Shown: positions 2,918 to 49,353 of the stretch, piece by piece
Position numbering within the stretch: position 1 is the first letter of the stretch
Layout of the letters: each line of letters begins with the position of its first letter
Made by a program: the position numbers and the translations under genes
Notes under the pieces: generated by a model
Seen by the model: only the letters and a program-made list of their open reading frames with translations
Told to the model about the DNA's origin: nothing
The model's database searches: none
DNA from: Parcubacteria group bacterium Gr01-1014_17
GTDB lineage: Bacteria; Patescibacteriota; Minisyncoccia; Phycocordibacterales; UBA10002
Reading direction: 5' to 3'
Assembly: GCA_007376285.1 (NCBI GenBank)
Contig: VMFZ01000005.1
Coordinates: 699 to 64,698 of the forward strand
DNA length: 64,000 nucleotides

Positions 2918-3677
2918 TATTGTCGTGTCGGTCATTATTCCGCTGTACAATGAAGAGCAGCGTTTACATAAAACTTTCGCAGCGATTGAACAGTTCGGAT
3001 TTACACATGGCGTCCATCCTTTTGAAATTGTGTTTGTTGACGACGGTAGCCGCGATGCGACCGTCAAATTAGTGCGTGCATTCATAGCTAATTTTCTCGG
3101 GGCTCGACTCGTCTCACATCCGAAGAATTTAGGAAAAGGTGCGGCAGTACGCACAGGAATGCTTGCGGCGCGCGGAGCGTGGCGGCTTTTTGCGGATGCC
3201 GACATGGCGACCGACCTTAGTGAGTTTCGAAAGTTTATTCCGTTTTTCTCATCTGGCGCACCCGTTATTATCGGTAGTCGCCGTATTTACGGGGCAGAAG
3301 TACTCGTACATCAGTCGCGGTTACGCGAAATAATGGGCGGGGTCTATACGATGCTCGCTAATTTTTTTACCGGTGCCAGCGTGTCCGATTTTACTTGTGG
3401 GTTCAAGTGTTTCCGTGCAGATGCCGCGCACGCAATTTTCTCGCGCTCGCGAATTGCGCGGTGGAGTTATGATGCGGAAATTCTTTTTTTAGCTCACCGT
3501 CTTGGGTTTGCCATTCAAGAAGTCCCGGTGTTGTGGAGAAACGACGGTGCGACGCGCGTCCGGCTGTGGAAAGACGCGCCGCGCGCGTTTTTTGACCTAC
3601 TTCTTTTGCGCGTATATACGGCGATTGGGCGATATAGATTAGGCGCAGTAGAACATATTAGTCGCAATATATCTTGA
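2901..3677 (+). CDS. GT2 polyprenyl-phosphate sugar synthase (Dpm1/GtrB/Alg5-like)
   Basis: VIIPLYNEE...VFVDDGSRDAT...GKGAAVRTG...ADADMATD motifs typical of the GT2 dolichyl/undecaprenyl-phosphate glycosyltransferases. Its start overlaps the preceding GT-C gene. Confidence 0.7.
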   Translation: MKERDDIVVSVIIPLYNEEQRLHKTFAAIEQFGFTHGVHPFEIVFVDDGSRDATVKLVRAFIANFLGARLVSHPKNLGKGAAVRTGMLAARGAWRLFADADMATDLSEFRKFIPFFSSGAPVIIGSRRIYGAEVLVHQSRLREIMGGVYTMLANFFTGASVSDFTCGFKCFRADAAHAIFSRSRIARWSYDAEILFLAHRLGFAIQEVPVLWRNDGATRVRLWKDAPRAFFDLLLLRVYTAIGRYRLGAVEHISRNIS

Positions 3678-10643: not shown

Positions 10644-10709
10644 GATGCAGATAGATTGAAAAGTCGCCTCATCGGCGACTCGCCGAAGAGGCGAGAAAGG
10701 TCTTTGATT

Positions 10710-11384: not shown

Positions 11385-11398
11385 GATTCTCTTTCACA

Positions 11399-11432
11399 AA
11401 GCGTCTCCCTACGGGAGACGCTTTTCTTTTGT
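11399..11432 (+). terminator. Rho-independent terminator (GCGTCTCCC-TAC-GGGAGACGC followed by a T-tract)
   Basis: A perfect 9 bp GC-rich stem followed by TTTTCTTTTG, directly after the aldolase stop codon. Confidence 0.6.
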
Positions 11433-11457
11433 ATGTTTTCTGCTATTATGAAAAACC

Positions 11458-30727: not shown

Positions 30728-30793
30728 ATAGTGAAAGATACTATTCCAACTGCGTGTTGGAGTCAATTTTGTTTCGTGCTATTCTTTTTTTCT

Positions 30794-31690
30794 ATGATAC
30801 CTCACACAGAGCGTCGACACCCTTTGGTCAGTATCGGCGTTCCCACCTATAATCGAGCCGACCTTTTGCAACTCACACTCGATTCGCTTCTTGCGCAGAC
30901 CGACAAAAATGTAGAAATTATTATCTCGGACAACGCGTCAACCGACGGCACTGAAGCACTCTGCCGCGCATATGCAGATAGAGAAAATCGAATTTTCTAC
31001 TTTCGACAAGAAAAAAACAGAGGTCAAATGAACAATTATTCGTTCCTTTTGCAGAAAGCGCGCGGGAAGTATTTTATGTGGGCGCAAGACGACGATTCTA
31101 TAGACCAAAACTATGTGGAAGTTCTTACTGATGTGTTAGAAAAGAATCCTGAATACTCGGTTGCCTTGAGCCATTATTACGAAAAACGAGTTGGCGCACT
31201 GACTCCCTTGCCCATCCGCGCTATCACCCACGACTACACGCATAAAAGTTATCGCGAACTGTACGAGCGTTGCCTGTATGGGAAAATCAGCGCGCTTCTG
31301 CTCTACGGTTTATATCGGACCGCGTGTATAAAAGTGCTCTACGCCCGACAGCTTCCCCTCACCTTTAACAATCTTTTGTTGTGGATGTCGGAACTCGTGC
31401 TTGCGGTAAAGGTGTATTCGGTGCCCCTGCTTTTATATACGCATACGCAAGATGTCAGGAGCCACGAAGCGCGACAACCAGACGGTCCGCTTACGCTCGC
31501 AGAGAAAAGGCCTTTTGCAATTACACACTATGTCGCGACCGGCCCCTTTTGGCTTCTTACTTCGCGCGCGATTCCCTTACATAGGAAATTATTGATTTTC
31601 GGCCCGTGGATTCGCCGCGCGTGGAAATATAAACGCAAAATATTTAATGAATGGCGCTGCGCATTTCTCAATATGTTTCGGCGCGTATGA
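30794..31690 (+). CDS. GT2-family glycosyltransferase
   Basis: VSIGVPTYNRADLL...IISDNASTDGT...DDD typical GT-A motifs. The track start at 30731 overlaps the divergent gene, so ATG 30794 is preferred. Confidence 0.65.
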   Translation: MIPHTERRHPLVSIGVPTYNRADLLQLTLDSLLAQTDKNVEIIISDNASTDGTEALCRAYADRENRIFYFRQEKNRGQMNNYSFLLQKARGKYFMWAQDDDSIDQNYVEVLTDVLEKNPEYSVALSHYYEKRVGALTPLPIRAITHDYTHKSYRELYERCLYGKISALLLYGLYRTACIKVLYARQLPLTFNNLLLWMSELVLAVKVYSVPLLLYTHTQDVRSHEARQPDGPLTLAEKRPFAITHYVATGPFWLLTSRAIPLHRKLLIFGPWIRRAWKYKRKIFNEWRCAFLNMFRRV

Positions 31691-31693: not shown

Positions 31694-33595
31694 TTATCGC
31701 TTGAGGAGTTGTATCAACGCATCCAGAGCCGCGTTCAGTGATCCAACAACTTGAGAAATTGCCGCGAGATTTTCTTTTCGTCTTTGTAGAGAGGTTGTGG
31801 TAGAAGTGTTTGTAGAAGGAGCAGAATTTACACCCGTAAGCGTGAACGGTAATGTGGCAGCGATTGATTGGCATCTCACAGATGCACTCGGCATATAAGT
31901 GCCGTAACATACGCGAGCACTATAATTTCCAGGCAAAGACGAGCGGGTGTCAAAACCGTCAATACCGGACGACGCATTATGACTGCCGATATTTACTGCT
32001 GTCCCATCGGGTTTTACTATTTCCGAGTGTACCGTAATAACCGATGGACAAGTGTAAGAAACATATATCACATCTCCGATTGCAAATGTAGTTTTATTAT
32101 TCGAAAGCGTAAACGTGAGATTAGAACATGTGTTCGCCGCAGTCGTAAAAGTATGTTCGGGCGGATAGCCGGTACTGAGTACCGCTGAATTTCCCTTTGC
32201 ATCAAAGTTATAAACTCTAAATGTGTAGAGCGTACCGCTTTTTAGATTTGAGAGGGTATAAGAATGCGGGGTCACATATGCCGCCCAAGAATTATCGTAC
32301 GGGGTAATCGCCCAATCCGCCACACTTCCATAGTTCACATATCCAAGGGCCGGTTCATCGGTAGTCCAAGTGATGACCGCTGAATTTGCGGTAATTGAAG
32401 AAGCCAACACTGATGACACGACTGGGGGCGTTATATCCGGTTTCGGAATAGTGAAATAATTGTCACTGTCGTCATACACTTCCGGACTGTCCCAATTAAA
32501 GACCCTTATTTTATAGTCGCTTCCAAAGCCGATTGCATTGTAGTATGGAGACGCCACCCTATCTCCCGAAGACGGTTCTCTCTCTACTGATGGCGGAAGC
32601 GACAAAGTTGTAGAATTAGTGGTAATTGGAGCGCTGTTGCTGTACACAACCTGTGAACCTTTTAAAATCTTGAATCCAACCCGACTCACTCCCTTTAACA
32701 AATAATTGATACCCTGATTAGAAAAATACATATCCCATGTTTCTCCCCCGTTTGGTGATGTGATGGTTATGGGAACGGTATTCTGCAGTGGCGGTGGTGT
32801 GGAGGTAGTATTAGATGCAGTTGTAATGGATGAGGAGATTGTTGCCGTTGTTGTTGTAGAAGGAGTAGAAACTGTAATCGTTGTTTGACTTGTCCCCGAA
32901 GAGGTACCGTTGACAGGTGCGACAGTCGTTGTCACCTCAACAATGGTAGTCGTTGCGCTTGTGGTAGTAGTAGAGGGTGCAAAAGGCGTGGTCGTTGTTG
33001 CAATCGGCAATTGTATTTCAGATGTTGTTGCGAGTTTCTTTTGAATGCCGGGCACCATCGTGAGCCCGGGCGGCACAACATCTGACTTGCCGGAGCCGCT
33101 CGTCAGCAAGTCGTTTATTTTGGTGAGCGTTTTCGGCCCTATATTTCCGACTGCTTCAATGTTGTGGCGCTCTTGGAACTTGCGGACTGCGGCGGCTGTG
33201 AGAGACCCGTAGAAGCCGGTTTGGAGTTTCTCAGGATAAAGGTCTGGAAATTGTGATAGAAACTTTTGAAGTTCACGCACATCCTCTCCACGCGAGCCGA
33301 TGGAAAGGGTGCGTGTGAAAATTGGTGCATTAATTTCTTGCGCTGCAGGTTGCCAGATAAGCGCACTAGGTTCTTCTTTTTCGCGCCGGAGCGCGTCACG
33401 CGCTTCAGTGAGCCGTACTTGAAGCACGACGATTTGGATTTCAATTTCTTGAATGGTACGCTCGAGCCCGCCGAGCGTATCTCCGCCCGCCGTCGTTTGG
33501 GCGTGCGCGCCAAAACCATACAAGAAAGCAAAGAGAAACACTCCTATTGCAAGAATCTCGGTACTTCTATGTTGCTTACGAGCGAACAATGACAT
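31694..33595 (-). CDS. Cell-surface protein: N-terminal signal/anchor, coiled-coil, peptidoglycan-binding domain, ~70 aa Thr/Ser-rich linker, then beta-rich (FN3-like) domains
   Basis: Hydrophobic N-terminus LAIGVFLFAFLYGFGAHA. PG_binding_1-like GSRGEDVRELQKFLS...GPKTLTKI. A TTTTPFAPSTTTTSATTTIVEVTTTVAPVNGTSSGTSQTTITVSTPSTTTTATISSSITTASNTTSTP stretch. C-terminal repeats with YTF/VY beta patterns. Confidence 0.5.
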   Translation of the reverse strand: MSLFARKQHRSTEILAIGVFLFAFLYGFGAHAQTTAGGDTLGGLERTIQEIEIQIVVLQVRLTEARDALRREKEEPSALIWQPAAQEINAPIFTRTLSIGSRGEDVRELQKFLSQFPDLYPEKLQTGFYGSLTAAAVRKFQERHNIEAVGNIGPKTLTKINDLLTSGSGKSDVVPPGLTMVPGIQKKLATTSEIQLPIATTTTPFAPSTTTTSATTTIVEVTTTVAPVNGTSSGTSQTTITVSTPSTTTTATISSSITTASNTTSTPPPLQNTVPITITSPNGGETWDMYFSNQGINYLLKGVSRVGFKILKGSQVVYSNSAPITTNSTTLSLPPSVEREPSSGDRVASPYYNAIGFGSDYKIRVFNWDSPEVYDDSDNYFTIPKPDITPPVVSSVLASSITANSAVITWTTDEPALGYVNYGSVADWAITPYDNSWAAYVTPHSYTLSNLKSGTLYTFRVYNFDAKGNSAVLSTGYPPEHTFTTAANTCSNLTFTLSNNKTTFAIGDVIYVSYTCPSVITVHSEIVKPDGTAVNIGSHNASSGIDGFDTRSSLPGNYSARVCYGTYMPSASVRCQSIAATLPFTLTGVNSAPSTNTSTTTSLQRRKENLAAISQVVGSLNAALDALIQLLKR

Positions 33596-33667: not shown

Positions 33668-35269
33668 TTGGAATATATGCTTCACAACTTCATTGTTTTC
33701 TTTGAGACCATTCTCTTTTTGTACATTTCGTATGTTGCAGGAAGGGCTTTCTTGCCGCGGCTCGGCGTCAAAGCGGTTTCCGGAATAGTGGTTGCGGTGC
33801 AGGCGGTTCTGCTCGGTTTGGGTATGTTCGCGCTCGCTGGTTTGGCGTTCGGACTCTTGGGGATATTCAATGCGGTAACGCTCTGGGCGTTTACGGCGAT
33901 GCTTGTGTTTGTCGCGCGAAAACAGATTCGGGCACACTTCTTATCGCTTACCATGGAAAACACGCGGCGCGTTTTCCATGCATTCCTCGGTTTGTTTAGG
34001 GAGAATACTTTTTTAAAAATACTGATTGCGGTATGGTTGGTTGCTAATTTTTCTCTCGCGTTCGTGCCGCTTACCGCGCACGACACCATAGATTACCATC
34101 TGCCCATTGTGCTGGACATTGTGGAAAAGGGGCGGACGGACTTTACGAGCGCGATTGAGCACTATAGTTTTACGCCCGTTCTCGCGGAGATTTTATACGC
34201 TGTGCCCGCCGTGCTGTTCAACGAAAAAACTGCTCCATTCGTCTTTCAGCCGCTACAGTATATGACGCTCCCGCTTTTTCTCGCGCTCGCGTACGGGTTT
34301 TTGCGGGATAAGCTCAAACGGCGCTGGCTCGCGCCGGCGGCGCTTCTCGCGGTGTTGGGCATGATGGCCCTCCAAAGAGAGGTTTTACACATGGGGTATG
34401 TGGACACCTTTGCGTTTTTATACGGATTTGCGGCGCTTTTCCCGCTTTTGGAATATGCGTCACAACAAAACGGAAACGCAAAACCGCATTTTTCGGAATT
34501 GATGTTTTCCGCCGTGATGCTCGGGATTTCGCTCGGTATGAAATATTTCGGTTTTTTCTTCGGCGTATTCGCCATTGTGTTTCTGGTCGTCGCATGGAGG
34601 CGTTTCTCTATAACGGCGCATGAAATGGGGCGAATGCTTTTTATATTCTGCGCGATTGTCGCGGCTATTTCCTTATTTTGGTACGCCAAGAATTGGTTCT
34701 GGTTCGACAATCCGCTGTACCCGATGTTTTCATCCGACCCTGCGATTGCGATAACTCAGCAAGGTATTAAGTCGTTTCTGCTTGACCGAACATTTTTGAA
34801 TTTTTTTATTTTCCCCTTTGCGCTTTTCGGTCAATGGTTTTTGAATCCCGCGGTAGAGAGTTCAAGCAATCTGGTGATTTTTGCGTATTTTGTATTGCTG
34901 TATCTGCTTGTCGCTCCGCGGATTTTCACGCGCGAGAAGTTTACGCGCGCGGAAGTATTGCTGTTTGTGTTCGTGCATGGCTATCTCGCATTCCACTTCG
35001 TACTCTCGCATTACCTCCGCTACCTCTTGCCGTCGGTGATGATTTTACCTGTGCTCCTTGCGCTTCTCGCGGACAGGCTCTTCTCTACCGCGGAACGCGC
35101 GCTTTCCGCGCTGCGGTTTTCTGTACTTCACAAAACCGCTCACCTCATTGTGGCGCTCGCTATTTTGGTTGTGTTTCTCGGAAACTTCCATTATTTCCAA
35201 ATTCGTTTTTCCTATATTTTAGGTATTTATAATGAACAAGAATATGTACGAAAAATCGGAAGCCAATAA
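33668..35269 (+). CDS. GT-C-fold integral membrane glycosyltransferase (ArnT/PMT/GT39-83-like)
   Basis: 533 aa with about 13 predicted TM helices and no soluble catalytic domain. Immediately followed by a GtrB-like GT2. Confidence 0.5.
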   Translation: MEYMLHNFIVFFETILFLYISYVAGRAFLPRLGVKAVSGIVVAVQAVLLGLGMFALAGLAFGLLGIFNAVTLWAFTAMLVFVARKQIRAHFLSLTMENTRRVFHAFLGLFRENTFLKILIAVWLVANFSLAFVPLTAHDTIDYHLPIVLDIVEKGRTDFTSAIEHYSFTPVLAEILYAVPAVLFNEKTAPFVFQPLQYMTLPLFLALAYGFLRDKLKRRWLAPAALLAVLGMMALQREVLHMGYVDTFAFLYGFAALFPLLEYASQQNGNAKPHFSELMFSAVMLGISLGMKYFGFFFGVFAIVFLVVAWRRFSITAHEMGRMLFIFCAIVAAISLFWYAKNWFWFDNPLYPMFSSDPAIAITQQGIKSFLLDRTFLNFFIFPFALFGQWFLNPAVESSSNLVIFAYFVLLYLLVAPRIFTREKFTRAEVLLFVFVHGYLAFHFVLSHYLRYLLPSVMILPVLLALLADRLFSTAERALSALRFSVLHKTAHLIVALAILVVFLGNFHYFQIRFSYILGIYNEQEYVRKIGSQ

Positions 35270-36032
35270 AAGAAACAGCGTCGTGGTGATTATGCCTGCG
35301 TATAATGCGGCTCGGACTTTGGAGAAAACATATAGGGCGATTCCGTATGGCGCGGTGGATGAAATTATTCTGGTAGACGATGCAAGCCGCGATGATACTC
35401 TCGCGGTCGCACACACGCTCCCTATCCGTGTGTTCAAGCACAAGCGCAATTACGGATACGGCGCGAACCAAAAGACCTGCTACACCGAAGCGCTTAAAAC
35501 AGACAACGATATTATCGTTATGCTTCATCCCGATTATCAGTACGACCCGTCGCTTTTACCGACGCTTATTGCGCCCATTGCGGAGGGCCGCTCGGACATC
35601 GTGCTGGGCTCACGGCTTATGGGGAAGAGCCCTGTTGCGCAGGGAATGCCGTGGTGGAAATACCTCGGCAATCGACTCCTCACTCGTTTAGAAAATATCG
35701 TGTTTGGTTTGCATTTATCCGAATATCATACCGGTTATCGCGCGTACGCGCGCCGCGTGCTTGAGGAGGTGCATTATGAAATGAATTCGGATAAGTTTGT
35801 GTTTGACCAAGAGTTTATCGCGCAGGCGGTGTGCAACAAGTACCGGATTGTGGAAGTGCCCGTGCCGACAAAATATTTTCCGGAAGCATCGTCTGCGAGT
35901 TTCCGCGCCAGCGTCGTGTACGGTTTTTCTATTTTGTTTCTGTTGGCGCGCTACCTTCTCCATCGGAATGGGTGGGTGTGTTCTATGCAGTTTGAGAGCT
36001 TGCCGAGGCGATATAAAACGGCGGTTCGTTAA
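35232..36032 (+). CDS. GT2 polyprenyl-phosphate sugar synthase (GtrB/Dpm1-like) with C-terminal TM helix
   Basis: VVIMPAYNAARTL...VDDASRDDT...YGYGANQK. C-terminal FSILFLLARYLL hydrophobic segment. Confidence 0.7.
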   Translation: MNKNMYEKSEANKRNSVVVIMPAYNAARTLEKTYRAIPYGAVDEIILVDDASRDDTLAVAHTLPIRVFKHKRNYGYGANQKTCYTEALKTDNDIIVMLHPDYQYDPSLLPTLIAPIAEGRSDIVLGSRLMGKSPVAQGMPWWKYLGNRLLTRLENIVFGLHLSEYHTGYRAYARRVLEEVHYEMNSDKFVFDQEFIAQAVCNKYRIVEVPVPTKYFPEASSASFRASVVYGFSILFLLARYLLHRNGWVCSMQFESLPRRYKTAVR

Positions 36033-37655: not shown

Positions 37656-37997
37656 ATGAAAGAAAGTAAGATTCATCCAAAAGTCACGGAACTCTTGCAA
37701 GAAGTATTCGGTTGGTTTAACGAAGATGAAGGCGAGCGAGCCGGAAAATATCCAGAAGTTTATCTCGTGTCTTTGTTAGAAAATATCAAAGAGGAATTGC
37801 CCGAAGTATCAGCGATGCTCTATTCAGCGGTTGATATGGCAAGATTCGGTCCTGATGTAAAAGGATTCAGATTCGGTCCCGCGACAGAAAGATTCCAAAA
37901 GATATTATCTGTCGTTCAACCAAATGAGAAAGTACCATCTCATAAAATGGGAAAGAAATCTCTAAAACGCCGACATTTGCAAAAAATTGCCGCGTAA
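37656..37997 (+). CDS. Hypothetical acidic protein (113 aa) with a basic C-terminal tail
   Basis: Begins 13 bp after the previous ORF. Ends KKSLKRRHLQKIAA. Followed by a terminator. Confidence 0.35.
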   Translation: MKESKIHPKVTELLQEVFGWFNEDEGERAGKYPEVYLVSLLENIKEELPEVSAMLYSAVDMARFGPDVKGFRFGPATERFQKILSVVQPNEKVPSHKMGKKSLKRRHLQKIAA

Positions 37998-38063: not shown

Positions 38064-39428
38064 TTGTCGGCGCGGCGATATCTTTTCTTTTTCCCGAATT
38101 GCGTCGGCGACCAATTGCAGAAAATTGCCGCGGCGCGGAATGATATACGCATCGTCTTTTTGGTTCTGAAAAAGGATTACGAACGCTACAAGCTGTTTCT
38201 GACTCGATTTCCCAGTGAACGCGTTATTGTGGAATCAGTATTACTTTCTTTCCAGAGAACTTTTTTTCAGAAGATTGTCCGCTTTTTTTATTCGTACCTT
38301 CTCTATACCAACACGACGCGTATTCTCGCAACGATGGGTATGCGCCCAGGCGAACCTCCCGCGGGAGGCAATCGTTTTATGGCGCCGCTCAAATGGCTCA
38401 TCGCGAACTCATTTGGGCGTTCGCGTTTTGTGCGTTTGAAAGTCGCGCCCTTTTTGCATTATCTCGCATTCAAGGACAGGCCGCTCGCTCCGTTGTTTGA
38501 GAAATACCGTCCCGATGCGGTATTTCTCTCCAGCATGTACGACCGTTTTGAAACACAAGTTATTCCGGAAGCAAAACGCCGCGGCATAAGAACCATCGCC
38601 ATGCCCGCGAGTTGGGACCATGTGGACAAATATTATTTGCCGTTCCATGCGGATATATTCGTGGCGCACAGCGAGCAGATAAAGCGCGCGGCAATCCGTT
38701 TCCAAAGTTATGCGCCCGAGTCCATCGTCGTGACTGGTTACCCGCATTTTGATTTTTTGGCGAGCAGAGAGTCGGTGCTTTCGCGCGAAGATACGCTCAA
38801 GGATCTCAACTTGCCGGCGGACTCACGCTACATTTTGTACGTGTCGGGAAGCGCGTATTGCCCCGATGAGCCGGACATTGTGGCTGAAATGTTGAAGTGG
38901 GTTGACGCTGGCGCGTTCGGCGAGAACACTTATATTGTTTTGCGACCGTACCTCGGTTCGCGAAGCAAAGATAAGGATTTTGACGCAGAAAAATATACGC
39001 GCCTATCGGAACATCCGCGCCTGCGCGTATTTGACAAGCGCGGCGTTGAAAAATTAGACGAGTCGGTGCTCTATCTCAATGTGATGCGGCATTCCGCAAT
39101 GGTGCTTGCTGTGTACAGCACGGTGTTTTTGGAATCAGTTGTGTTTGACCGCCCGCTCGTTGCGGCGCCATTTGACGGGTGGAATACGCGGCCGCTGTAC
39201 CGCTCAATACGGCGTTTTGAAGGATTTGAGCATTTTAAGGATGTTGCAGCGATCGGCGCGATTCGCGCGGCGCGCTCTTTTCCGGAATTGAAAAAAGTTA
39301 TTTCGGATTATCTTGCACATCCTGAACGGGATGCGGAAAAGCGTGAGAAAATGCGTCGCGAAATTTGTTGGAAGCTGGACGGTCGTTCTAGTGAACGATT
39401 AGTGAATCTTATTTTGGAAAATCTGTGA
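38064..39428 (+). CDS. TagF-like GT-B transferase, paralog 2 of 5
   Basis: ASWDHVDKY...VTGYPHFD...ILYVSGSAY...VYSTVFLESVVFDRPLVAAPFD...LDGRSSERL blocks shared with the other paralogs. Apparent TTG start. Confidence 0.4.
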   Translation: MSARRYLFFFPNCVGDQLQKIAAARNDIRIVFLVLKKDYERYKLFLTRFPSERVIVESVLLSFQRTFFQKIVRFFYSYLLYTNTTRILATMGMRPGEPPAGGNRFMAPLKWLIANSFGRSRFVRLKVAPFLHYLAFKDRPLAPLFEKYRPDAVFLSSMYDRFETQVIPEAKRRGIRTIAMPASWDHVDKYYLPFHADIFVAHSEQIKRAAIRFQSYAPESIVVTGYPHFDFLASRESVLSREDTLKDLNLPADSRYILYVSGSAYCPDEPDIVAEMLKWVDAGAFGENTYIVLRPYLGSRSKDKDFDAEKYTRLSEHPRLRVFDKRGVEKLDESVLYLNVMRHSAMVLAVYSTVFLESVVFDRPLVAAPFDGWNTRPLYRSIRRFEGFEHFKDVAAIGAIRAARSFPELKKVISDYLAHPERDAEKREKMRREICWKLDGRSSERLVNLILENL

Positions 39429-40762
39429 AGACCATCTTTATCATTTGCTTCCACCCGCTCATCTCGCGCAATATTTTGAGCGCGCCATTTTTTAAGATAC
39501 TTGCCGGTGTTGCAGGATTGCGCATTGTGTTGGTTGTTTCTGAAAAGAAGATTGATTTCTTTGAGAAGTTTTACCAAAAAGACAATGTCATTATAGAAGG
39601 CATTCCACGGAAATTAAACGAAGCCGATTATTTGTTTAAGGACTTGGCGGCGGCGGCGATTCGCACGCGCACGCGGAAGCTGATACGCAATATGCGCCTT
39701 GGACACGAACGGTGGAATGCGCTTCGCGTGTTTTTTTGGGCACCGCTCATCCGTCCGCTTATTCCAAAGCTTTATGCGTGGTGTATGCCATGCAAGCGGT
39801 ACGCTACACTGTTTGAAAAATACAAGCCCACTGAGGTGTTTGCAACGGATATTTTTAATCCGATGGATGTCATTTTTATGTACGAAGCGAAACAGCGCGG
39901 CATCGCCACCGTCGGAATGGTGCGCTCGTGGGACAACTTGACCGCCAAAGGCGGATTTAGGGTGGTGCCGGACACGCTCGTTGTACAAAACGAGATTATT
40001 AAAAAAGAAGCGCAAGATATTCACGACATTCCGGAAACTAAAATCCGCGTCGTCGGCATTCCGCATTACGACAAATATCGGAATGGCGCGCCAATGCCGC
40101 GAACAGATTTTTGCGCGACACTAGGTATCCCTCCGGAGAGAAAATTTATTTTGTACGCCCCGGTGGGAAATCGATTCTTCACAAAGAATACCTTTGACCG
40201 AGAAATGATACTGATTCTTCGCGCTATACTTCCTGATAATTTTTATCTTTTGGTGCGTACGCCACCAGGCGACCCGGTTGATATGGAAGGAATACCACTC
40301 GACCCGCACATTATTATTGACGAGCCGGGTACGCGGTTTCCGTGGGCGGGGGAGCGGCTGATTGATACGGAAATGTCTCCGCAGGACGATGACTGGCTTG
40401 CCGCAACACTTTCGCATTGCGAGCTTTTGGTTTCCGGCTTCACCACGCTCATTGTTGATGCGGCGCGGTTCGGCAAGCCGATTATTGTGGTGGGTTTTGA
40501 TGCGAAAACGCCTTTGCCATATAACGAAAGCGTCTTGCGCCAGCTTGGGTTCAATCATTTTCAGCCAATCTTAAAAAGCGGCGGCGCGCGAGTGGCGCGG
40601 AATGAAAAAGAATTGAAGCTGGTTATAGATGAGTATCTTGCGAATCCGGAACATGATGCGGAGGCGCGGCAGAGAATGGTTACCGAGCAGTGTTTCAGAT
40701 ATGACGGCAAGTCAAGCGAACGGCTCCTCCGCGTTATTTTGGAGAATATAAAGATATGTTAA
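39425..40762 (+). CDS. TagF-like GT-B transferase, paralog 3 of 5
   Basis: RSWDNLTAKG...VVGIPHYDKY...FILYAPVGN...GFTTLIVDAARFGKPIIVVGFD...YDGKSSERL blocks. Confidence 0.4.
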   Translation: MKTIFIICFHPLISRNILSAPFFKILAGVAGLRIVLVVSEKKIDFFEKFYQKDNVIIEGIPRKLNEADYLFKDLAAAAIRTRTRKLIRNMRLGHERWNALRVFFWAPLIRPLIPKLYAWCMPCKRYATLFEKYKPTEVFATDIFNPMDVIFMYEAKQRGIATVGMVRSWDNLTAKGGFRVVPDTLVVQNEIIKKEAQDIHDIPETKIRVVGIPHYDKYRNGAPMPRTDFCATLGIPPERKFILYAPVGNRFFTKNTFDREMILILRAILPDNFYLLVRTPPGDPVDMEGIPLDPHIIIDEPGTRFPWAGERLIDTEMSPQDDDWLAATLSHCELLVSGFTTLIVDAARFGKPIIVVGFDAKTPLPYNESVLRQLGFNHFQPILKSGGARVARNEKELKLVIDEYLANPEHDAEARQRMVTEQCFRYDGKSSERLLRVILENIKIC

Positions 40763-46389: not shown

Positions 46390-47588
46390 TTCATTCTCTT
46401 TTCAAGAGATTTCGGCTACATTTTTTCGCACTCGCCGCGCTCGCGCTTTTTCCGCTTCTCGCGATTCTTGCTCGCATTCGTGCGCGGGGACGCACCGGCA
46501 ACGCACCGCGTATATTGGTCGTACCAATACTGACGCGCGTCGGGGATTTGGTGTGTTCAACACCGGTGTTTCGGGAAATAAAGATGCACTTTCCAAACGC
46601 CCACCTTGCAGTGGTCGTCGGTCGGAAAGCAAAGGGAATTCTTGTGCACAATCCACGGATTGACGATCTGATTGATTACAATAATGAGCGTTTTCATGGA
46701 TTTGCTGGACGCTGGAGGTTTTTCTATTTTTTATATTCGCAAAAATTTGACGCGGTATTTTCATTGGGAACGAGCGTTATCGGTACGCTTTCCTGTATTT
46801 TCGCCGCCGCTCCGATTCGTGTGAAGACCGTGGTGGCGCACCCGCCGTTTTTTGAGCGATTGACCGATTGGATGAACACAGATCGGGTAACCTATACGCA
46901 CGGCACATTTCTCCAGAAACATTATGTGTCGCTTCTTTCCGCGCTGGGAGTTCGTTCTGCACAACCGATCAAAGAGGTATTCACGACCGAGGCGGGCGAG
47001 AGGAAAGCGCGCGCATTTTTTGATGGCGCGTTTGGAGGCGTTCCGCCGCTTTTGGTTGGTATGACTGTCTCTGCGGGCAACAAGATAAAAGAATGGCCAC
47101 TGGCGCGTTTCGCGGAGGTTGCGGATATACTGGTGGAGAAATATGGAGCAAGAATTATTTTCATAGACAGTCCGGCGAATCGCGAACGCACTGAAGAGGT
47201 GGTGGGTCTGATGAAACGGCGTGCTGCGGCGTGCGCAATAGATTTTTCTTTGGAAGAACTACCTTCGCTCATTAAACGATTACACGCTTTTGTGGCGGTA
47301 GACACGGGCGCTATTTATATTGCGCACGCGCTTGGCGTTCCATTGGTTGATATTATTGGACCCGTTGAGCCGAATGAACAGCCGCCCTCTGATGAAAAGA
47401 GTGTTCAGGTCCTTCCGGCGAGTGGAATCGAGCCCACCTCATTTGTTTTCTATTCGAATGAGTGTAACGGCAATTATATGCCGGCGGTTCTCTCTATTAC
47501 CGCGCCACAAGTCGTTGCGGCTTTTGAGTTGCTCATTGCGCGCGGATTTGTACGCAATGCGCAACCTTTTTATGAAAAGAATTCGTAA
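46386..47588 (+). CDS. Glycosyltransferase family 9 (heptosyltransferase-like), second copy
   Basis: RILVVPILTRVGDLVCSTPVFREIKMHFPNAHLAVVVG N-terminal GT9 signature and VDTGAIYIAHALGVP. Confidence 0.6.
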   Translation: MIHSLFKRFRLHFFALAALALFPLLAILARIRARGRTGNAPRILVVPILTRVGDLVCSTPVFREIKMHFPNAHLAVVVGRKAKGILVHNPRIDDLIDYNNERFHGFAGRWRFFYFLYSQKFDAVFSLGTSVIGTLSCIFAAAPIRVKTVVAHPPFFERLTDWMNTDRVTYTHGTFLQKHYVSLLSALGVRSAQPIKEVFTTEAGERKARAFFDGAFGGVPPLLVGMTVSAGNKIKEWPLARFAEVADILVEKYGARIIFIDSPANRERTEEVVGLMKRRAAACAIDFSLEELPSLIKRLHAFVAVDTGAIYIAHALGVPLVDIIGPVEPNEQPPSDEKSVQVLPASGIEPTSFVFYSNECNGNYMPAVLSITAPQVVAAFELLIARGFVRNAQPFYEKNS

Positions 47589-49353
47589 CATCGCATCGCA
47601 TTGGTGGCGGTTGTTTAATACGCTGTACCGTAGTTGCCGGCGCCGCATGGCATTTGTCGTGTTTCTCGGCTTTGCCTCAAGTTTTTTTGAAGGATTTGGC
47701 GTGGTGCTTCTTGTTCCGCTTATTGCGTTTCTCGTAGGAGGACAGGGTGCGCCAACCGGCGCATTAGCGAACTTTCTTTCAAACATTCCTCTTGGTTTCT
47801 TGGGTGGGTGGTCGTTCAAGGCGGTTTTCGTTCTGGTTGTGGTTTTGTTTTTGGCAAAAGGCGCTCTACTGTTTTGGGCAGGCGTATTCCGTGCGAACAC
47901 ACTGACGAGCTATAGCAGAATGATGCGCGAACGCTTATACCGCCAAATGCTCGGTTCCTCATTTTCTTATTTACGCGCTCAGAAAATAGGAAATTTTAAC
48001 CATATATTGATTTCTGATTTGAAGGCGAGCGTCAAATTGCTTCATTTTTCCACGGATGTTATCCGTTCGGTTGCAAACCTCTTTTCATACGCCGCACTTG
48101 CTTTTCTCCTCTCGCCGGCCATCGCGGGGTTGACGCTTGCCGGAGGCGCGTTGTTTCTCCTTGCATGGAATCCGGTTTTTGCGCGTTTACGGAACTATAT
48201 GCGCAAGCTTATGCGTGTCCGAGCGGACATGACTCACGCTATAGATGAGACGCTCATCGGCATCAAAACCATCAAGGCGCTTGGGGTTGAGAAGGAATCG
48301 CTTCTGCGGGTGCGAGGCTATTTTAATGAGACAGAAGAAGTTGAGCGAAGGAAAGACCTTGCGCGCCTTACCGCCAAGCTCTCTGTTGAGCCCGTATCAC
48401 TCTTTTTCATTATAAGCGTCTTTGCTATATCGTATTACTATTTATCGTTTGATGTAACCACATTCATTCCGATTGTGTATTTGATACAACAGATGTTTAC
48501 GCGCATTGGCAAGATACAGTCTTCGCTTAATGTGGTAGATGATTCCATTGCACATGCGGAAAAAGTCGCGGCTATCATTGCTGAAACTGAAGCTAACAAA
48601 GAGCCGCGCGGCGGTGCTATTCCTTTTTTATTTGAAAGAGAATTGGCGCTTTCGCATATTGAATTTTCATACCGCGGAGAGCCGATTTTTTCTGATTTAT
48701 CTTTTTTCGTGAAGCGAGGCGAATTTGTCGGCATAATCGGACCAACGGGTTCCGGCAAGACAACGATGGTTGATTTATTGCTTCGTTTGATGGAGCCTGC
48801 GGATGGGCATGTGCTTCTTGATGGTAGAGATGTGTCGCAGTTTTCAATTTCTGACTGGCGCAAAAAAATCATGTATGTTCCGCAGGAGAGTTTTCTTTTG
48901 AATGCGACCATAGCAGACAATGTGCGATTTTTGCAGGACATTCCCGATGCGTCAGTGAGGCAGGCGATTTCTCGGGCACAATTAGGGGATTTGGTGGCGC
49001 GCTGGCCGAAAGGAATTGATACGCAGGTTGGTGAGCGCGGCGCCGAACTTTCCGGCGGGGAGCGCCAGCGCATCGCCATTGCCCGCGCGCTTGCGCGCAA
49101 CCCCGATGTGCTCATCTTGGACGAAGCGACGAGCGCGCTTGATTTTGAAACAGAAGCTTCTGTGAAGAATGTTATTGACTCCCTGAAAGGAATGGTAACG
49201 ATTATCGTCATTGCGCACCGCATTTCCACCGTGCTCGGCGCGGACCGTATTATCGCTTTAGAAAATGGGCGGATTGTTGAAGAGGGAAGCCCGAAAGAAC
49301 TTCAGGTGAATCCAGATTCATATTTGTCGCGGATGCTGTCGTTTATCTCATGA
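47557..49353 (+). CDS. ABC exporter, fused permease-ATPase (MsbA/type I exporter-like)
   Basis: Six N-terminal TM helices, then Walker A GPTGSGKTT, signature LSGGERQR and Walker B LILDEAT. The track ORF starts at 47320 inside the upstream gene; an internal ATG (47557 or 47572) is preferred. Confidence 0.8.
   Translation: MRNLFMKRIRNIASHWWRLFNTLYRSCRRRMAFVVFLGFASSFFEGFGVVLLVPLIAFLVGGQGAPTGALANFLSNIPLGFLGGWSFKAVFVLVVVLFLAKGALLFWAGVFRANTLTSYSRMMRERLYRQMLGSSFSYLRAQKIGNFNHILISDLKASVKLLHFSTDVIRSVANLFSYAALAFLLSPAIAGLTLAGGALFLLAWNPVFARLRNYMRKLMRVRADMTHAIDETLIGIKTIKALGVEKESLLRVRGYFNETEEVERRKDLARLTAKLSVEPVSLFFIISVFAISYYYLSFDVTTFIPIVYLIQQMFTRIGKIQSSLNVVDDSIAHAEKVAAIIAETEANKEPRGGAIPFLFERELALSHIEFSYRGEPIFSDLSFFVKRGEFVGIIGPTGSGKTTMVDLLLRLMEPADGHVLLDGRDVSQFSISDWRKKIMYVPQESFLLNATIADNVRFLQDIPDASVRQAISRAQLGDLVARWPKGIDTQVGERGAELSGGERQRIAIARALARNPDVLILDEATSALDFETEASVKNVIDSLKGMVTIIVIAHRISTVLGADRIIALENGRIVEEGSPKELQVNPDSYLSRMLSFIS

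What the first reader, a model, noticed from the sequence alone, without database searches (positions are those of the whole stretch)
31694..33595. Ser/Thr-rich cell-surface protein with a peptidoglycan-binding domain, bracketed by GT-C/GtrB glycosylation pairs: candidate glycoprotein substrate
The 633 aa protein has an N-terminal anchor, a PG-binding domain, a ~70-residue linker that is almost pure Thr/Ser, and beta-rich distal domains. It sits directly upstream of a GT-C membrane glycosyltransferase and GtrB-like polyprenyl-P-sugar synthase pair (33.7-36.0 kb). A second GtrA-GT-C and GtrB set lies at 0.7-3.7 kb. GT-C enzymes using polyprenyl-P-sugars (PMT-like) O-glycosylate Ser/Thr-rich regions. 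This is an architecture for protein O-glycosylation that is poorly described outside actinobacteria.
Basis: partly seen in the sequence, partly recalled or inferred. Interest (0 to 1): 0.6.

Follow-up and report, generated by a model that had tools for sequence, protein, structure and literature searches.

The report
Wall-docked Thr/Ser-stalk surface protein beside glycosyltransferases
A candidate-phyla-radiation (Parcubacteria) bacterium encodes a secreted, peptidoglycan-docking surface protein with a disordered Thr/Ser-rich stalk next to a membrane sugar-transfer enzyme pair; the protein may be sugar-coated by that pair, but the gene neighbourhood is not conserved and the mechanism is already known from streptococci and actinobacteria.

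Summary
The 633-aa ORF is real, but it is on the minus strand. It has a cleavable-looking signal peptide, a helix, a PG_binding_1 domain, an 84-residue disordered linker (54% Ser/Thr), three beta-sandwich modules and a C-terminal amphipathic helix. The window is a Parcubacteria (CPR) contig and is one large surface-glycan gene island.

The neighbouring 533-aa membrane protein matches no Pfam, NCBIfam or PDB sequence. Its model and a profile comparison place it in the GT-C superfamily, near PMT_2, with ArnT and Pmt as the best folds. The next gene is a DPMS/ArnC-like GT2 without TM helices. The protein gene is transcribed divergently from this pair.

Ten loci carry a homologue of this GT-C (34-86% identity). 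Only the window and its closest relative have a PG-binding or Ser/Thr-rich protein nearby. Seven loci encoding homologues of the protein lack the GT-C. The closest positional orthologue has swapped its middle modules and lacks the long linker at that position.

So the GT-C/GT2 pair is a conserved island module and the protein occupies a variable slot. The substrate idea stays plausible: S. mutans cnm-pgf shows the same accessory-substrate, core-machinery layout. It is unproven. The claim that this is poorly described outside actinobacteria is outdated.

The parts
31694..33595 (-). Gene for the 633-aa secreted, PG-binding, Ser/Thr-stalk surface protein (NCBI name 'mucin-2-like', Parcubacteria group bacterium Gr01-1014_17)
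   Evidence: ORF; 100% match to P0001; domains
33500..33595 (-). Signal peptide, aa 1-32 (MSLFARKQHRSTE / ILAIGVFLFAFLYGFG / AHA|Q)
   Evidence: One hydrophobic segment at aa 14-32; AxA-Q motif recurs in homologues; cleavage inferred from the -3/-1 rule
33374..33478 (-). N-terminal helix, aa 40-74; the family-conserved 'LQxQIxxLQ' type helix
   Evidence: AF2 helix with pLDDT 76-91; consensus of alignment A3
33119..33292 (-). PG_binding_1 domain, aa 102-159
   Evidence: Pfam PF01471, E 9.8e-12, 45.3 bits against a cut-off of 23; pLDDT >90
32759..33010 (-). Disordered Thr/Ser-rich stalk, aa 196-279 (45 S/T of 84 residues)
   Evidence: pLDDT <50 over aa 170-266; no DNA tandem repeat
32441..32770 (-). 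Beta-sandwich module 1, aa 276-385; homologues carry Kre9_KNH (PF10342) in their distal region
   Evidence: AF2 strands with pLDDT >90; Pfam domain lists of homologues
32141..32419 (-). FnIII-like module, aa 393-485
   Evidence: Pfam fn3 24.1 bits (cut-off 25) and Pur_ac_phosph_N; AF2 and Foldseek tandem-FnIII matches, E 2e-9
31841..32140 (-). Third, Cys-containing beta module, aa 486-585; about 90% identical to the orthologue P0002
   Evidence: pLDDT 45-64
31700..31792 (-). C-terminal amphipathic helix, aa 602-632; conserved across the family; preceded by a short S/T-rich stretch
   Evidence: helix, pLDDT 62-85; C-termini of homologues
33668..35269 (+). Unclassified GT-C-fold membrane glycosyltransferase (533 aa ORF; likely start at 33677, 530 aa); divergent from the surface-protein gene
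   Evidence: About 10 TM helices. No Pfam, NCBIfam or PDB sequence hit. AF2 pLDDT 79.8, pTM 0.86. Foldseek top hits are ArnT, STT3, Pmt1, ALG3, Pmt4 and DPY19. hhalign to a PMT/PMT_2 protein gives probability 97.8%.
35232..36032 (+). GT2 that resembles polyprenyl-phosphate sugar synthases (266 aa, no TM helix); overlaps the GT-C stop by 38 bp
   Evidence: Pfam GT2 E 4e-23. Best NCBIfam matches are AglJ, PpgS and Dol-P-hexose transferase, all below their cut-offs. PDB best matches are Pyrococcus DPMS 5mlz (E 6e-10) and ArnC.
30731..31690 (+). GT2 glycosyltransferase, convergent with the surface-protein gene; in locus L003 its homologue directly abuts the GT-C
725..2917 (+). GtrA domain (aa 13-131) fused to a multi-TM membrane protein of about 600 aa; probable but unverified second GT-C
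   Evidence: Pfam GtrA E 7e-19. Homologues are fused to GT2 instead of GtrA. 7 of 20 relatives give weak PMT_2 hits. hhalign to A1 or a PMT_2 protein gives only 17-24% probability.
2901..3677 (+). GT2 that resembles polyprenyl-phosphate sugar synthases (258 aa, no TM helix)
   Evidence: Pfam GT2 E 1e-28; best NCBIfam match PgfS at 68.6 bits, below the cut-off
38064..40762 (+). Two TagB/TagF-fold transferases. The first also hits the BFO_1060 nonulosonate-transferase model weakly.
   Evidence: Glyphos_transf hits at 43-47 bits; BFO_1060 at 46 bits against a cut-off of 200 for 38064-39428
47320..49353 (+). Fused TMD-NBD ABC exporter of the MsbA/HepA/PglK type, part of the glycan island

Best explanation
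The gene encodes a Sec-exported surface-display protein of a Parcubacteria (CPR) bacterium.

How the protein works (inferred from its anatomy):
- After signal-peptide cleavage, the PG_binding_1 domain docks it non-covalently on the peptidoglycan.
- An 84-97-residue disordered Thr/Ser-rich stalk spans the wall.
- Three Ig/FnIII-like beta-sandwich modules are held outward, probably for binding.
- N- and C-terminal amphipathic helices, conserved across the family, probably mediate oligomerisation or retention.

Family and position (shown):
- It belongs to a large CPR family that keeps the N-terminal module and the C-terminal helix but swaps linkers and distal modules.
- It sits as a lone, oppositely oriented gene in a variable slot of a conserved surface-glycan biosynthesis island that fills the whole 64-kb window.

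The neighbouring enzymes:
- The unclassified GT-C and the DPMS/ArnC-like GT2 form an extracytoplasmic glycosylation module. The GT2 would load a sugar onto polyprenyl phosphate in the cytoplasm, and the GT-C would transfer it outside the membrane. Both steps are inferred from fold and family similarity.
- Their conserved partners are the island's glycan genes. Their most likely acceptor is therefore the island's cell-envelope glycopolymer, as a side-chain decoration like CsbB/YfhO or GacI/GacL.
- The stalk of this protein is a possible additional or alternative acceptor.
For: Protein anatomy:
- ORF and domains.
- AF2 model with a disordered stalk and beta modules.
- FnIII-array fold matches.
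- The family shows a conserved signal peptide, helix, PG_binding_1 and C-terminal helix, with variable fn3, Kre9, LamG or beta-helix modules.
- The closest orthologue keeps aa 1-186 (74% identity) and the C-terminal ~150 residues (aa 486-633, ~90% identity over 148 aligned positions by count) but swaps the middle.

GT-C and GT2:
- GT-C fold: Foldseek top hits are all GT-C enzymes, the best being ArnT at TM 0.46.
- hhalign to a PMT/PMT_2 protein gives probability 97.8% and E 7e-13, with the invariant TAHDTxDYH aligned to TAWDALVYH.
- Second-tier relatives carry PMT_2.
- The GT2 resembles DPMS, ArnC, AglJ and PpgS.

Variable slot against conserved module:
- In L003 the upstream GT2 directly abuts the GT-C.
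- In L002 the slot holds four unrelated genes.
- Only L001 (86% identical GT-C) has a PG-binding protein there.
- Six further loci with a full or nearly full GT-C homologue (L008-L013, 34-55% identity) have no PG-binding or S/T-rich ORF within 10 kb, and neither does the fragmentary L014. A GT2 neighbour is present in most of them, and TagB/F-fold genes in several.
- Seven loci with homologues of the protein lack A1 or A2 GT-Cs.

Island content: GT4, two GT9, five TagB-fold paralogues, ABC exporter, carbamoyltransferase, NeuB, two CMP-sugar synthetases, many methyltransferases and epimerases.

Precedent for glycan acceptors: GT-A/GT-C(/GtrA) systems that decorate teichoic acids and wall polysaccharides (PMC5836110, PMC8035078, PMC7389260).
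Against: - No experiment and no sequence feature identifies the acceptor. ArnT (lipid), Pmt (protein), STT3 and ALG3 are all about equally distant from the GT-C.
- The same enzyme families that decorate teichoic acids also O-glycosylate Ser/Thr-rich disordered regions in streptococci.
- The S. mutans cnm-pgf locus shows that an accessory substrate gene can sit beside a core glycosylation operon.
- PG-binding paralogues recur in or beside glycan gene clusters. L004 has two in tandem, and L015 has one flanked on one side by a GT4 and sugar-nucleotide genes. This hints at some link between the family and envelope glycans.
- The 'teichoic-like' label for the island is uncertain. Three of the five TagB-fold genes (12978-14363, 38064-39428, 45034-46389) also resemble nonulosonate transferases, which act in protein O-glycan synthesis in Tannerella.
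- Signal-peptide cleavage, PG binding and an adhesive function are inferred, not shown.
Confidence: 0.55

Rival explanations
1. The GT2 makes a polyprenyl-phosphate monosaccharide. The adjacent GT-C transfers it outside the membrane onto Ser/Thr of the disordered stalk of this protein, and probably of other secreted Ser/Thr-rich proteins. The result is a Pmt-, PgtC2- or Pgf-like protein O-glycosylation system in a CPR bacterium, which would stiffen the stalk and protect it from proteases.
For: - The acceptor is exported, disordered and Thr-rich.
- The GT-C is homologous to PMT/PMT_2-bearing proteins.
- Pmt1 and Pmt4 are among the top fold matches.
- The GT2s resemble PgfS, DPMS and AglJ.
- The gene is adjacent in the window and in its closest relative L001.
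- There is direct experimental precedent for GT-A plus GT-C glycosylation of extracytoplasmic Ser/Thr-rich disordered regions (PMC12041528).
- An accessory Thr-rich substrate gene, cnm, abuts the core pgf operon in S. mutans (PMC5856776).
Against: - Adjacency is seen in only 2 of 10 GT-C loci, both closely related, and in 0 of 7 loci of protein homologues.
- The genes are divergently transcribed.
- The GT-C is always embedded in polysaccharide-type clusters. From general knowledge of those systems, not tested here, pmt and pgtC2 are not.
- About half of the family lacks a long S/T linker, and the closest orthologue lacks it at the same position.
- No Pfam PMT, PMT_2 or YfhO hit for any of the 13 close family members.
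Confidence: 0.27
2. The Ser/Thr-rich region is simply an unglycosylated flexible spacer of a modular wall-associated protein, or is modified by an enzyme encoded elsewhere. Its position beside the GT-C reflects insertion into a recombination-prone slot of the island and has no functional meaning.
For: - The slot content differs between relatives: empty in L003, four unrelated genes in L002, and a differently built paralogue in L001.
- A conserved 263-aa plus 113-aa gene pair moves from one side of the GT-C/GT2 pair to the other.
- Homologues lie in housekeeping contexts.
- The linker is non-repetitive low complexity of variable length and position.
Against: - Long exposed Ser/Thr tracts are protease-sensitive, and are glycosylated where this has been examined in monoderm bacteria (PMC12041528).
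- PG-binding paralogues recur near glycan genes.
Confidence: 0.15
3. The protein is the structural glycoprotein (S-layer-like) for which the whole island builds a complex glycan, as in the slg clusters of Geobacillus/Paenibacillus or the Tannerella general O-glycosylation locus. The GT-C would act as the oligosaccharyl:protein transferase.
For: - The protein is the only predicted exported protein with no recognisable enzyme or transporter domain in a 64-kb glycan island. A few small ORFs without any family match also lie in the window.
- The island encodes NeuB, two CMP-sugar synthetases and BFO_1060-like transferases, which act in Tannerella protein O-glycan synthesis.
- An MsbA/PglK-like exporter is present.
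Against: - No Wzy_C/PglL/WsaB-type O-oligosaccharyltransferase was detected.
- The GT-C is paired with a polyprenyl-P-monosaccharide-synthase-like GT2 in most loci, which suggests single-sugar transfer.
- The island is conserved in relatives without the protein.
- The family has many paralogues with different distal modules, unlike a single abundant S-layer protein.
Confidence: 0.05

Closest known systems
Streptococcus mutans Cnm/WapA with the Pgf machinery (PgfS GT-A, PgfM1 and PgfM2 GT-C, PgfE epimerase)
   Same: - A secreted wall-associated adhesin with a Thr-rich region is encoded right beside a GT-A plus GT-C module.
- The substrate gene is accessory (about 15% of strains) while the machinery is core (PMC5856776).
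- The window's 2901-3677 GT2 has PgfS as its best NCBIfam match.
   Different: - cnm is co-transcribed with pgfS. Here the genes are divergent.
- Cnm is LPxTG-anchored with a repetitive Thr-rich region. Here there is a PG_binding_1 dock and a non-repetitive linker.
- No epimerase sits in the pair.
- The GT2 scores are far below the PgfS cut-off (68.6 against 500 bits).
- The GT-C matches no Pfam family.
GtrB + PgtC2 (YfhO-family GT-C) glucosylation of Ser/Thr-rich disordered regions in S. pyogenes and S. pneumoniae
   Same: A Und-P-sugar synthase and a GT-C decorate extracytoplasmic Ser/Thr-rich disordered regions next to folded domains. Glycosylation protects these regions from proteolysis (PMC12041528).
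   Different: - PgtC2 belongs to the YfhO family. No YfhO hit was found here.
- The streptococcal substrates are housekeeping membrane proteins (PrsA, PBP1a, PknB).
- From general knowledge, not tested here, the streptococcal genes are not embedded in a glycan island.
Actinobacterial protein O-mannosylation (Ppm1 + Pmt, GT39)
   Same: A polyprenyl-P-mannose synthase and a PMT-type GT-C O-glycosylate Thr/Ser/Pro-rich regions of Sec-exported proteins. The GT-C here is a remote homologue of PMT/PMT_2-bearing proteins.
   Different: - No PF02366 or PF13231 hit for the 533-aa protein or its 12 close relatives.
- No PDB sequence hit to Pmt.
- The fold match to Pmt1 covers only 266 columns at TM 0.31.
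Three-component GtrA/GtrB/GT-C glycan decoration: B. subtilis and Listeria CsbB/GtlA-YfhO/GtlB-GtcA on teichoic acids, streptococcal GacI/GacL, Shigella phage GtrABC
   Same: - A GtrA-type flippase domain, a GT2 polyprenyl-P-sugar synthase and a GT-C are encoded within polysaccharide or teichoic-type clusters and add side-chain sugars outside the membrane (PMC5836110, PMC8035078, PMC7389260).
- The pair here is embedded in a glycan island with TagB/F-fold genes.
   Different: - The GT2s lack the C-terminal TM helices of GtrB/CsbB.
- GtrA is fused to the other membrane protein, 28 kb away.
- The polymer made by the island is unknown and may contain nonulosonic acids.
ArnT (GT83, lipid A Ara4N transferase) with ArnC
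   Same: ArnT is the best fold match (5f15: E 0.017, TM 0.46). ArnC is among the best PDB matches of the GT2.
   Different: The match is not significant (E > 1e-3), and there is no sequence-level hit. From general knowledge, CPR bacteria are monoderm-like and no lipid A acceptor is expected.

Membership tests
PG_binding_1 (PF01471) domain proteins | Match to the Pfam model above the gathering score | tested here: met
   45.3 bits against a cut-off of 23, aa 102-159; pLDDT >90 three-helix domain
Fibronectin type III (PF00041) | Pfam match above the gathering score, or an FnIII beta-sandwich fold | tested here: inconclusive
   Sequence score 24.1 bits against a cut-off of 25. The AF2 model matches tandem FnIII arrays at E 2e-9. 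So the fold criterion is met and the HMM score falls just below threshold.
GT-C superfamily of membrane glycosyltransferases | Multi-TM GT-C fold | tested here: met
   AF2 pTM 0.86. The top 16 Foldseek PDB hits are all GT-C enzymes at probability >=0.91, but with E 0.017-0.6 and TM <=0.46. hhalign to a PMT/PMT_2 protein gives probability 97.8% over 428 columns.
GT-C superfamily of membrane glycosyltransferases | Conserved acidic catalytic residue in the first extracytoplasmic loop | tested here: inconclusive
   Invariant H138-D139-T140..D142-Y143-H144 in 13 homologues. D139 aligns with an Asp of the PMT_2 protein. Topology and equivalence to the catalytic Asp of ArnT or Pmt were not established.
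PMT / GT39 protein O-mannosyltransferases (PF02366, PF16192) | Match to the PMT Pfam models | tested here: not met
   No hit at E <=10 for any of the 13 family members; no PDB sequence hit
PMT_2 / ArnT-like (PF13231, GT83) | Match to PF13231 or to the ArnT NCBIfam model | tested here: not met
   No hit for the protein or its close relatives. Only second-tier relatives (HMM E 1e-18 to 1e-44) carry PMT_2, some above the cut-off.
YfhO family (PgtC2, LTA glycosyltransferase) | Match to the YfhO Pfam model | tested here: not met
   Pfam scans returned no YfhO hit. The large extracellular domain typical of YfhO (general knowledge) is also absent: the model is 533 aa and almost entirely helical.
GtrB / CsbB-type bactoprenol glycosyltransferase | GT2 catalytic domain related to polyprenyl-P sugar synthases | tested here: met
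   PF00535 E 4e-23. Best NCBIfam matches are AglJ, PpgS and Dol-P-hexose transferase. PDB best matches are DPMS 5mlz (E 6e-10) and ArnC. All NCBIfam scores are below the equivalog cut-offs.
GtrB / CsbB-type bactoprenol glycosyltransferase | Two C-terminal transmembrane helices | tested here: not met
   No hydrophobic segment in the 266-aa or the 258-aa GT2 (Kyte-Doolittle scan)
GtrA family (PF04138) | Match to the Pfam model above the gathering score | tested here: met
   aa 13-131 of the 730-aa protein, 68.7 bits against a cut-off of 26.1
Extracytoplasmic Ser/Thr-IDR O-glycosylation systems (Pgf, GtrB/PgtC2, Ppm/Pmt) | An exported acceptor with a disordered Ser/Thr-rich region | tested here: met
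   Signal peptide; 54% S/T over 84 aa; pLDDT <50
Extracytoplasmic Ser/Thr-IDR O-glycosylation systems (Pgf, GtrB/PgtC2, Ppm/Pmt) | Glycan demonstrably attached to the protein in a GT-A/GT-C-dependent way | not testable with these tools
   Needs mass spectrometry, lectin blots or mobility shifts with and without the enzymes. The organism is uncultivated.
Extracytoplasmic Ser/Thr-IDR O-glycosylation systems (Pgf, GtrB/PgtC2, Ppm/Pmt) | Conserved genomic or phyletic association between the enzyme and Ser/Thr-rich acceptors | tested here: not met
   Association in 1 of 9 other GT-C loci and 0 of 7 protein-homologue loci. Genome-wide co-occurrence was not testable.
Serine-rich repeat glycoproteins (SRRP, accessory Sec) | Long Ser-rich repeats, LPxTG anchor, linked secA2/secY2 and cytoplasmic GtfA/B | tested here: not met
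   No DNA repeats, no LPxTG in the sequence, and no accessory Sec genes in the window

The most novel reading that the evidence does not exclude
A CPR-specific, so far unclassified branch of the GT-C superfamily (no Pfam, NCBIfam or PDB sequence match), together with a TM-less polyprenyl-P-sugar synthase, O-glycosylates the Thr/Ser stalks of a CPR-wide family of peptidoglycan-docked modular surface proteins. These proteins are framed by conserved N- and C-terminal helices. This would be, to my knowledge, the first protein glycosylation system assigned in the Candidate Phyla Radiation, acting on likely host-contact proteins of these episymbionts.
Probability: 0.25. Interest if true: 0.6.

Novelty: new member of a known kind. 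Interest (0 to 1): 0.35.

Why it matters
- CPR/Patescibacteria bacteria have very small genomes and mostly live attached to other microbes, so their surface molecules are central to their biology and almost uncharacterised.
- This contig devotes at least 64 kb to surface-glycan synthesis. That is several percent of a genome of the roughly 1 Mb typical of CPR (general knowledge).
- The contig also encodes a member of a large family of wall-docked, module-swapping display proteins.
- If the Thr/Ser stalks are glycosylated by the neighbouring divergent GT-C, it would extend lipid-carrier-dependent protein O-glycosylation to the CPR and give a handle on host-contact proteins.
- If not, the pair is another case of side-chain decoration of a wall glycopolymer. 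That is ordinary in mechanism, but it involves a GT-C family missing from current family databases.

Tried and rejected
- Pfam and NCBIfam on the 533-aa protein and its 12 relatives gave no hits.
- A profile search of PDB sequences gave no hits at E <=10.
Both are too distant for alignment-based trees: there are no sequence hits, and the fold E-values are 0.017-0.03.
- hhalign of the 730-aa family against the 533-aa family or a PMT_2 protein gave only 17-24% probability. I therefore do not claim a verified GT-C fold for the second set.
- The promoter/terminator scan found 14 and 10 sites against 12 and 10.2 expected, so it is uninformative. It is compatible with divergent promoters in the 72-bp spacer.
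- Tandem Repeats Finder found no repeats in the linker DNA.
- Rfam found nothing in 29-39 kb.
- PADLOC and PDB sequence searches on the 263-aa and 113-aa genes found nothing.
- Cluster names of second-tier GT-C relatives were only 'hypothetical' or an automatic 'ArnT-like' label.
- SRRP/accessory-Sec glycoprotein: rejected. There are no repeats, no LPxTG and no aSec genes.
- I first read the Glyphos_transf genes as evidence for a teichoic acid. I softened this after three of the five paralogues also hit the BFO_1060 nonulosonate-transferase model, and after finding NeuB and CMP-sugar synthetases in the island.
- S-layer glycoprotein with the GT-C as oligosaccharyltransferase: judged unlikely. 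No Wzy_C-type enzyme was found, and the island is conserved without the protein.

Full report
**1. What is in the sequence**

An ATG-initiated ORF of 633 aa occupies 31694-33595 on the minus strand. It is identical to an NCBI protein named 'mucin-2-like' from Parcubacteria group bacterium Gr01-1014_17, on a 65,147-bp contig. The window is therefore from a Candidate Phyla Radiation (CPR/Patescibacteria) genome.

The N-terminus has a basic n-region, one hydrophobic stretch (aa 14-32) and AHA|Q. An AxA-Q motif recurs at the same place in homologues. I read this as a cleavable Sec signal peptide rather than a membrane anchor. This is an inference from the -3/-1 rule.

The rest of the protein reads as follows:
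- PG_binding_1 at aa 102-159 passes Pfam's cut-off (45.3 against 23 bits). An fn3 match at aa 394-470 falls just below its cut-off.
- Residues 196-279 hold 45 Ser/Thr out of 84 (33 T, 12 S) plus 9 Pro. No other ORF in the window reaches 50% S/T over 40 residues.
- The DNA of this stretch has no tandem repeats.

An AlphaFold2 model built on 35 homologues gives:
- a helix at aa 40-74;
- a confident PG-binding domain;
- a disordered segment at aa 170-266 (pLDDT <50);
- two confident beta-sandwiches at aa 276-385 and 393-485;
- a weaker third beta-sandwich at aa 491-577;
- a second disordered S/T-rich stretch;
- a C-terminal helix at aa 602-632.

Foldseek matches the distal part to tandem FnIII arrays. 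No enzymatic domain was found.

**2. The neighbours**

The gene is a lone minus-strand unit.
- It converges on a GT2 at 30731-31690 (stop codons 3 bp apart).
- It diverges from a 533-aa protein with about 10 TM helices at 33668-35269. The spacer is 72 bp and the likely start is the ATG at 33677.

That membrane protein and its 12 close relatives hit nothing in Pfam, NCBIfam or PDB sequences.
- Its AF2 model (pLDDT 79.8, pTM 0.86) retrieves only GT-C enzymes at the top of a Foldseek PDB search: ArnT, STT3, Pmt1, ALG3, Pmt4, DPY19 and AftA/B. Probabilities are about 1, but E-values are weak (0.017 or worse) and TM is at most 0.46.
- A profile comparison with a remote hit that carries the PMT and PMT_2 domains gives 97.8% probability over 428 columns. 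The invariant TAHDTxDYH motif aligns with TAWDALVYH.
- An exhaustive HMM search finds 64 representatives at E <=1e-30 and 3,904 at E <=1e-3.
- Second-tier relatives of about 640 aa carry PMT_2, sometimes above the cut-off.

So this is a GT-C-fold enzyme on the periphery of PMT_2. It is not a member of the PMT, ArnT or YfhO families by their models, and it cannot be assigned to a protein, lipid or glycan acceptor.

The next gene (35232-36032) is a 266-aa GT2. Its best matches are AglJ, PpgS, Dol-P-hexose transferase, Pyrococcus DPMS (5mlz, E 6e-10) and ArnC. These are polyprenyl-phosphate sugar synthases, though all NCBIfam scores are below the curated cut-offs. It lacks the TM helices of GtrB.

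At 725-2917 a GtrA domain (E 7e-19) is fused to a membrane protein of about 600 aa, followed by another such GT2.
- Homologues of that membrane domain are fused to GT2 instead of GtrA. This fusion pattern argues for coupling with polyprenyl-P-sugar chemistry.
- 7 of 20 relatives give weak PMT_2 hits.
- Profile comparisons are not significant, so its GT-C fold is unverified.
- This set lies 28 kb from the surface-protein gene.

**3. The wider context**

Every other gene with a recognisable function in the 64 kb is a glycan-synthesis or export gene. A few ORFs match no family. The recognisable ones include:
- GT4, two GT9 and several GT2;
- an RpiB-cytidylyltransferase fusion and a PfkB kinase;
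- a GHMP kinase with nucleotidyltransferases, many epimerases/dehydratases and RmlC;
- more than eight methyltransferases, including a C-methyltransferase;
- a SPASM radical-SAM enzyme and a B12-radical-SAM enzyme;
- a carbamoyltransferase;
- UDP-GlcNAc 2-epimerase, NeuB and two CMP-sugar synthetases;
- an MsbA/HepA/PglK-like ABC exporter;
- five TagB/TagF-fold paralogues.

The TagB/F-fold proteins pass or approach Glyphos_transf. Three of them (12978-14363, 38064-39428, 45034-46389) also weakly hit the BFO_1060 model, the nonulosonate transferases of the Tannerella protein O-glycan (PMC5420450). The island's product could therefore be a teichoic-type polymer or a nonulosonate-containing heteroglycan. 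I do not commit to either.

**4. Is the adjacency meaningful?**

I collected loci holding homologues of the GT-C. Nine of them besides the window have a full or nearly full gene, at 34-86% identity. They come from MAGs labelled Taylorbacteria, Sungiibacteriota, Niyogibacteria, Giovannonibacteria, Saccharibacteria and others. A tenth (L014) holds only a 43-residue C-terminal fragment.
- In L001 (86% identity) a PG-binding protein occupies the same slot on the same strand.
- In L003 (65%) the upstream GT2 abuts the GT-C with nothing in between.
- In L002 (63%) the slot holds four unrelated plus-strand genes.
- In the six more distant full loci and in L014, no ORF within reach matches a PG-binding HMM or exceeds 38% S/T over 40 aa.
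- The polyprenyl-P-sugar-synthase-like GT2 stays adjacent in most loci. TagB/F-fold genes are nearby in several.

The reverse test gives the same answer. Seven loci encoding homologues of the surface protein contain no member of either membrane-GT family (HMM search with a positive control).
- Two of them lie in or beside glycan gene clusters. L004 holds two paralogues in tandem. L015 has a GT4 and sugar-nucleotide genes on one side.
- L016 has Mur ligases beside the gene and a GT4-GtrA-GT4 group about 8 kb away.
- The other four (L005, L006, L017, L018) are in housekeeping neighbourhoods.

So the GT-C/GT2 pair is a conserved module of the island, and the surface protein sits in a variable slot. 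A conserved 263-aa plus 113-aa gene pair (81-82% identical) also changes sides around the GT-C/GT2 pair, which marks this as a rearranging spot.

**5. The protein family**

The 77 hits form a modular CPR family.
- Conserved parts: a signal peptide, a 'DLQALIKQLQEQI..LQ' helix, PG_binding_1, and in most members a terminal 'NLAAI..L.SL...L..L..LLK/R' helix preceded by a short S/T stretch.
- Variable parts lie between these: linkers and modules such as fn3, Kre9_KNH, LamG, beta-helix and SMP-30.
- Of 39 members where the end of the PG-binding domain could be located, 12 reach 50% S/T and 21 reach 40% S/T in a 40-aa window just after it.

The positional orthologue P0002 shares aa 1-186 (74% identity) and the C-terminal ~150 residues (aa 486-633, ~90% identity over 148 aligned positions by count). 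It replaces the long linker and first beta-sandwich with a Cys-rich module, short T/P linkers, a NosD-type beta-helix and two fn3 domains.

S/T-rich linkers are a common trait of the family, but not a fixed one.

**6. Mechanism**

Shown by the analyses here:
- the domain order and the predicted disorder of the stalk;
- the GT-C fold and the homology of the GT2 to polyprenyl-P sugar synthases;
- the synteny pattern.

Inferred:
- Sec export and signal-peptide cleavage;
- non-covalent docking on peptidoglycan;
- a stalk that projects the beta modules through the wall;
- helices that oligomerise or retain the protein;
- a GT2 that loads polyprenyl phosphate, and a GT-C that transfers the sugar outside the membrane.

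For the acceptor I favour the island's own glycopolymer (about 55%). The pair is conserved inside glycan clusters irrespective of the protein. This also matches the CsbB/YfhO/GtcA, GacI/GacL and GtrABC systems (PMC5836110, PMC8035078, PMC7389260).

The protein-acceptor model keeps about 27%. Exactly this chemistry glycosylates extracytoplasmic Ser/Thr-rich disordered regions in streptococci (PMC12041528). In addition, the accessory Thr-rich cnm gene lies directly beside the core pgf operon in S. mutans (PMC5856776). Non-conserved adjacency therefore weakens the model but does not refute it.

A purely coincidental insertion with an unglycosylated spacer gets about 15%. An S-layer-glycan reading gets about 5%.

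**7. Comparison with known systems, and novelty**

Functionally the locus resembles the Pgf, GtrB/PgtC2 and Ppm/Pmt systems and the three-component glycan-decoration systems. By family models, the GT-C is a member of none of PMT, PMT_2/ArnT or YfhO. The GT2s are not canonical GtrB, because they have no TM helices and score below the cut-offs.

The claim that such an architecture is poorly described outside actinobacteria no longer holds. What is new is modest:
- a divergent GT-C family, mostly from CPR, that is missing from family databases;
- a CPR-wide family of wall-docked display proteins with conserved terminal helices;
- a very large glycan island in a small genome.

In the held literature I found only computational predictions of O-glycosylation for Patescibacteria (pilins; PMC12206443) and no experimental case.

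**8. Verdict**

Comparative genomics lowers its support.
- I rate it as a new member of a known kind, interest 0.35.
- The most novel reading not excluded is the first protein O-glycosylation system in the CPR, acting on host-contact proteins. I give it about 0.25 probability and 0.6 interest if true.

Noticed in passing
window 31700-31792 (aa 602-632) and 33374-33478 (aa 40-74); homologues P0002-P0055: Most members of the PG-binding surface-protein family end in a conserved amphipathic helix of about 28 aa ('NLAAI..L.SL...L..L..LLK/R'), whatever their distal domains. The helix is preceded by a short S/T-rich stretch. After the signal peptide they start with a conserved 'LQ.QI..LQ' helix. Neither helix matches a Pfam or NCBIfam model. 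They could be a CPR-specific retention, sorting or oligomerisation signal, or they could pair with each other.
   Followed up: partly
window 1-64000: Essentially the whole 64-kb window is one surface-glycan gene island. It holds more than 50 genes, including NeuB, two CMP-sugar synthetases, five TagB-fold paralogues, a carbamoyltransferase, B12- and SPASM-radical-SAM enzymes and more than eight methyltransferases. This is a large investment for a CPR bacterium with a small genome. Long stretches are syntenic in relatives (L001-L003).
   Followed up: partly
window 36852-37643 and 37656-37997 (low-GC stretch, 39.6% over 36-38 kb); L001 14608-15718; L002 8766-9892: A gene pair of 263 aa and about 110 aa has no Pfam, NCBIfam, PADLOC or PDB match. 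The 263-aa protein is 81-82% identical in three related loci, and the small one 44-60%. The pair lies downstream of the GT-C/GT2 pair in the window and in L001, but upstream of it in L002.
   Followed up: partly
P0001 against P0002 (window 31694-33595; L001 6929-9892): The two positional orthologues keep their N-terminal 186 aa (74% identity) and the C-terminal ~150 residues (aa 486-633, ~90% identity by count). Their middle modules are entirely different: S/T linker plus a Kre9-like sandwich in one, and a Cys-rich module plus NosD beta-helix plus two fn3 in the other. This looks like cassette-style exchange of the exposed part.
   Followed up: yes
L006 13853-15256 (beside homologue P0014 at 10001-12100): Components of a diversity-generating retroelement (bAvd PF22296 and an RVT_1 reverse transcriptase) lie 1.7 kb downstream of a homologue of the surface protein. 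A 250-aa ORF of unknown function lies between them. The target of the element was not determined.
   Followed up: no
window 725-2917; homologues P0113, P0118, P0121, P0131: The membrane domain of about 600 aa in this CPR-wide family is fused to GtrA at its N-terminus in some members and to a GT2 domain in others (839-844 aa). This fusion pattern links it to polyprenyl-P-sugar metabolism, although the domain itself matches no Pfam model. It co-occurs with the 533-aa GT-C family in L009 and L012.
   Followed up: partly
window 12978-14363, 38064-39428, 39425-40762, 45034-46389, 49350-50705: There are five paralogous TagB/TagF-fold proteins. Three pass Glyphos_transf (38064-39428, 39425-40762, 49350-50705). 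Three give weak hits to the BFO_1060 family, the Tannerella pseudaminic/legionaminic acid transferases (12978-14363, 38064-39428, 45034-46389). Whether they transfer glycerol phosphate or nonulosonic acids is open.
   Followed up: partly
window 7789-8655: A single ORF fuses an RpiB/LacAB-type sugar-phosphate isomerase to a cytidylyltransferase domain. A PfkB kinase follows. This suggests an unusual CDP-sugar or CDP-alditol pathway.
   Followed up: no
L005 13316-14767, L006 5322-6743, L015 1-3686: PG_binding_1-type domains also occur on a GH18 chitinase-like protein, an M23 peptidase and a 1,227-aa CarboxypepD_reg protein in these CPR loci. This is consistent with PG_binding_1 being a general wall-docking module in these bacteria.
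   Followed up: no
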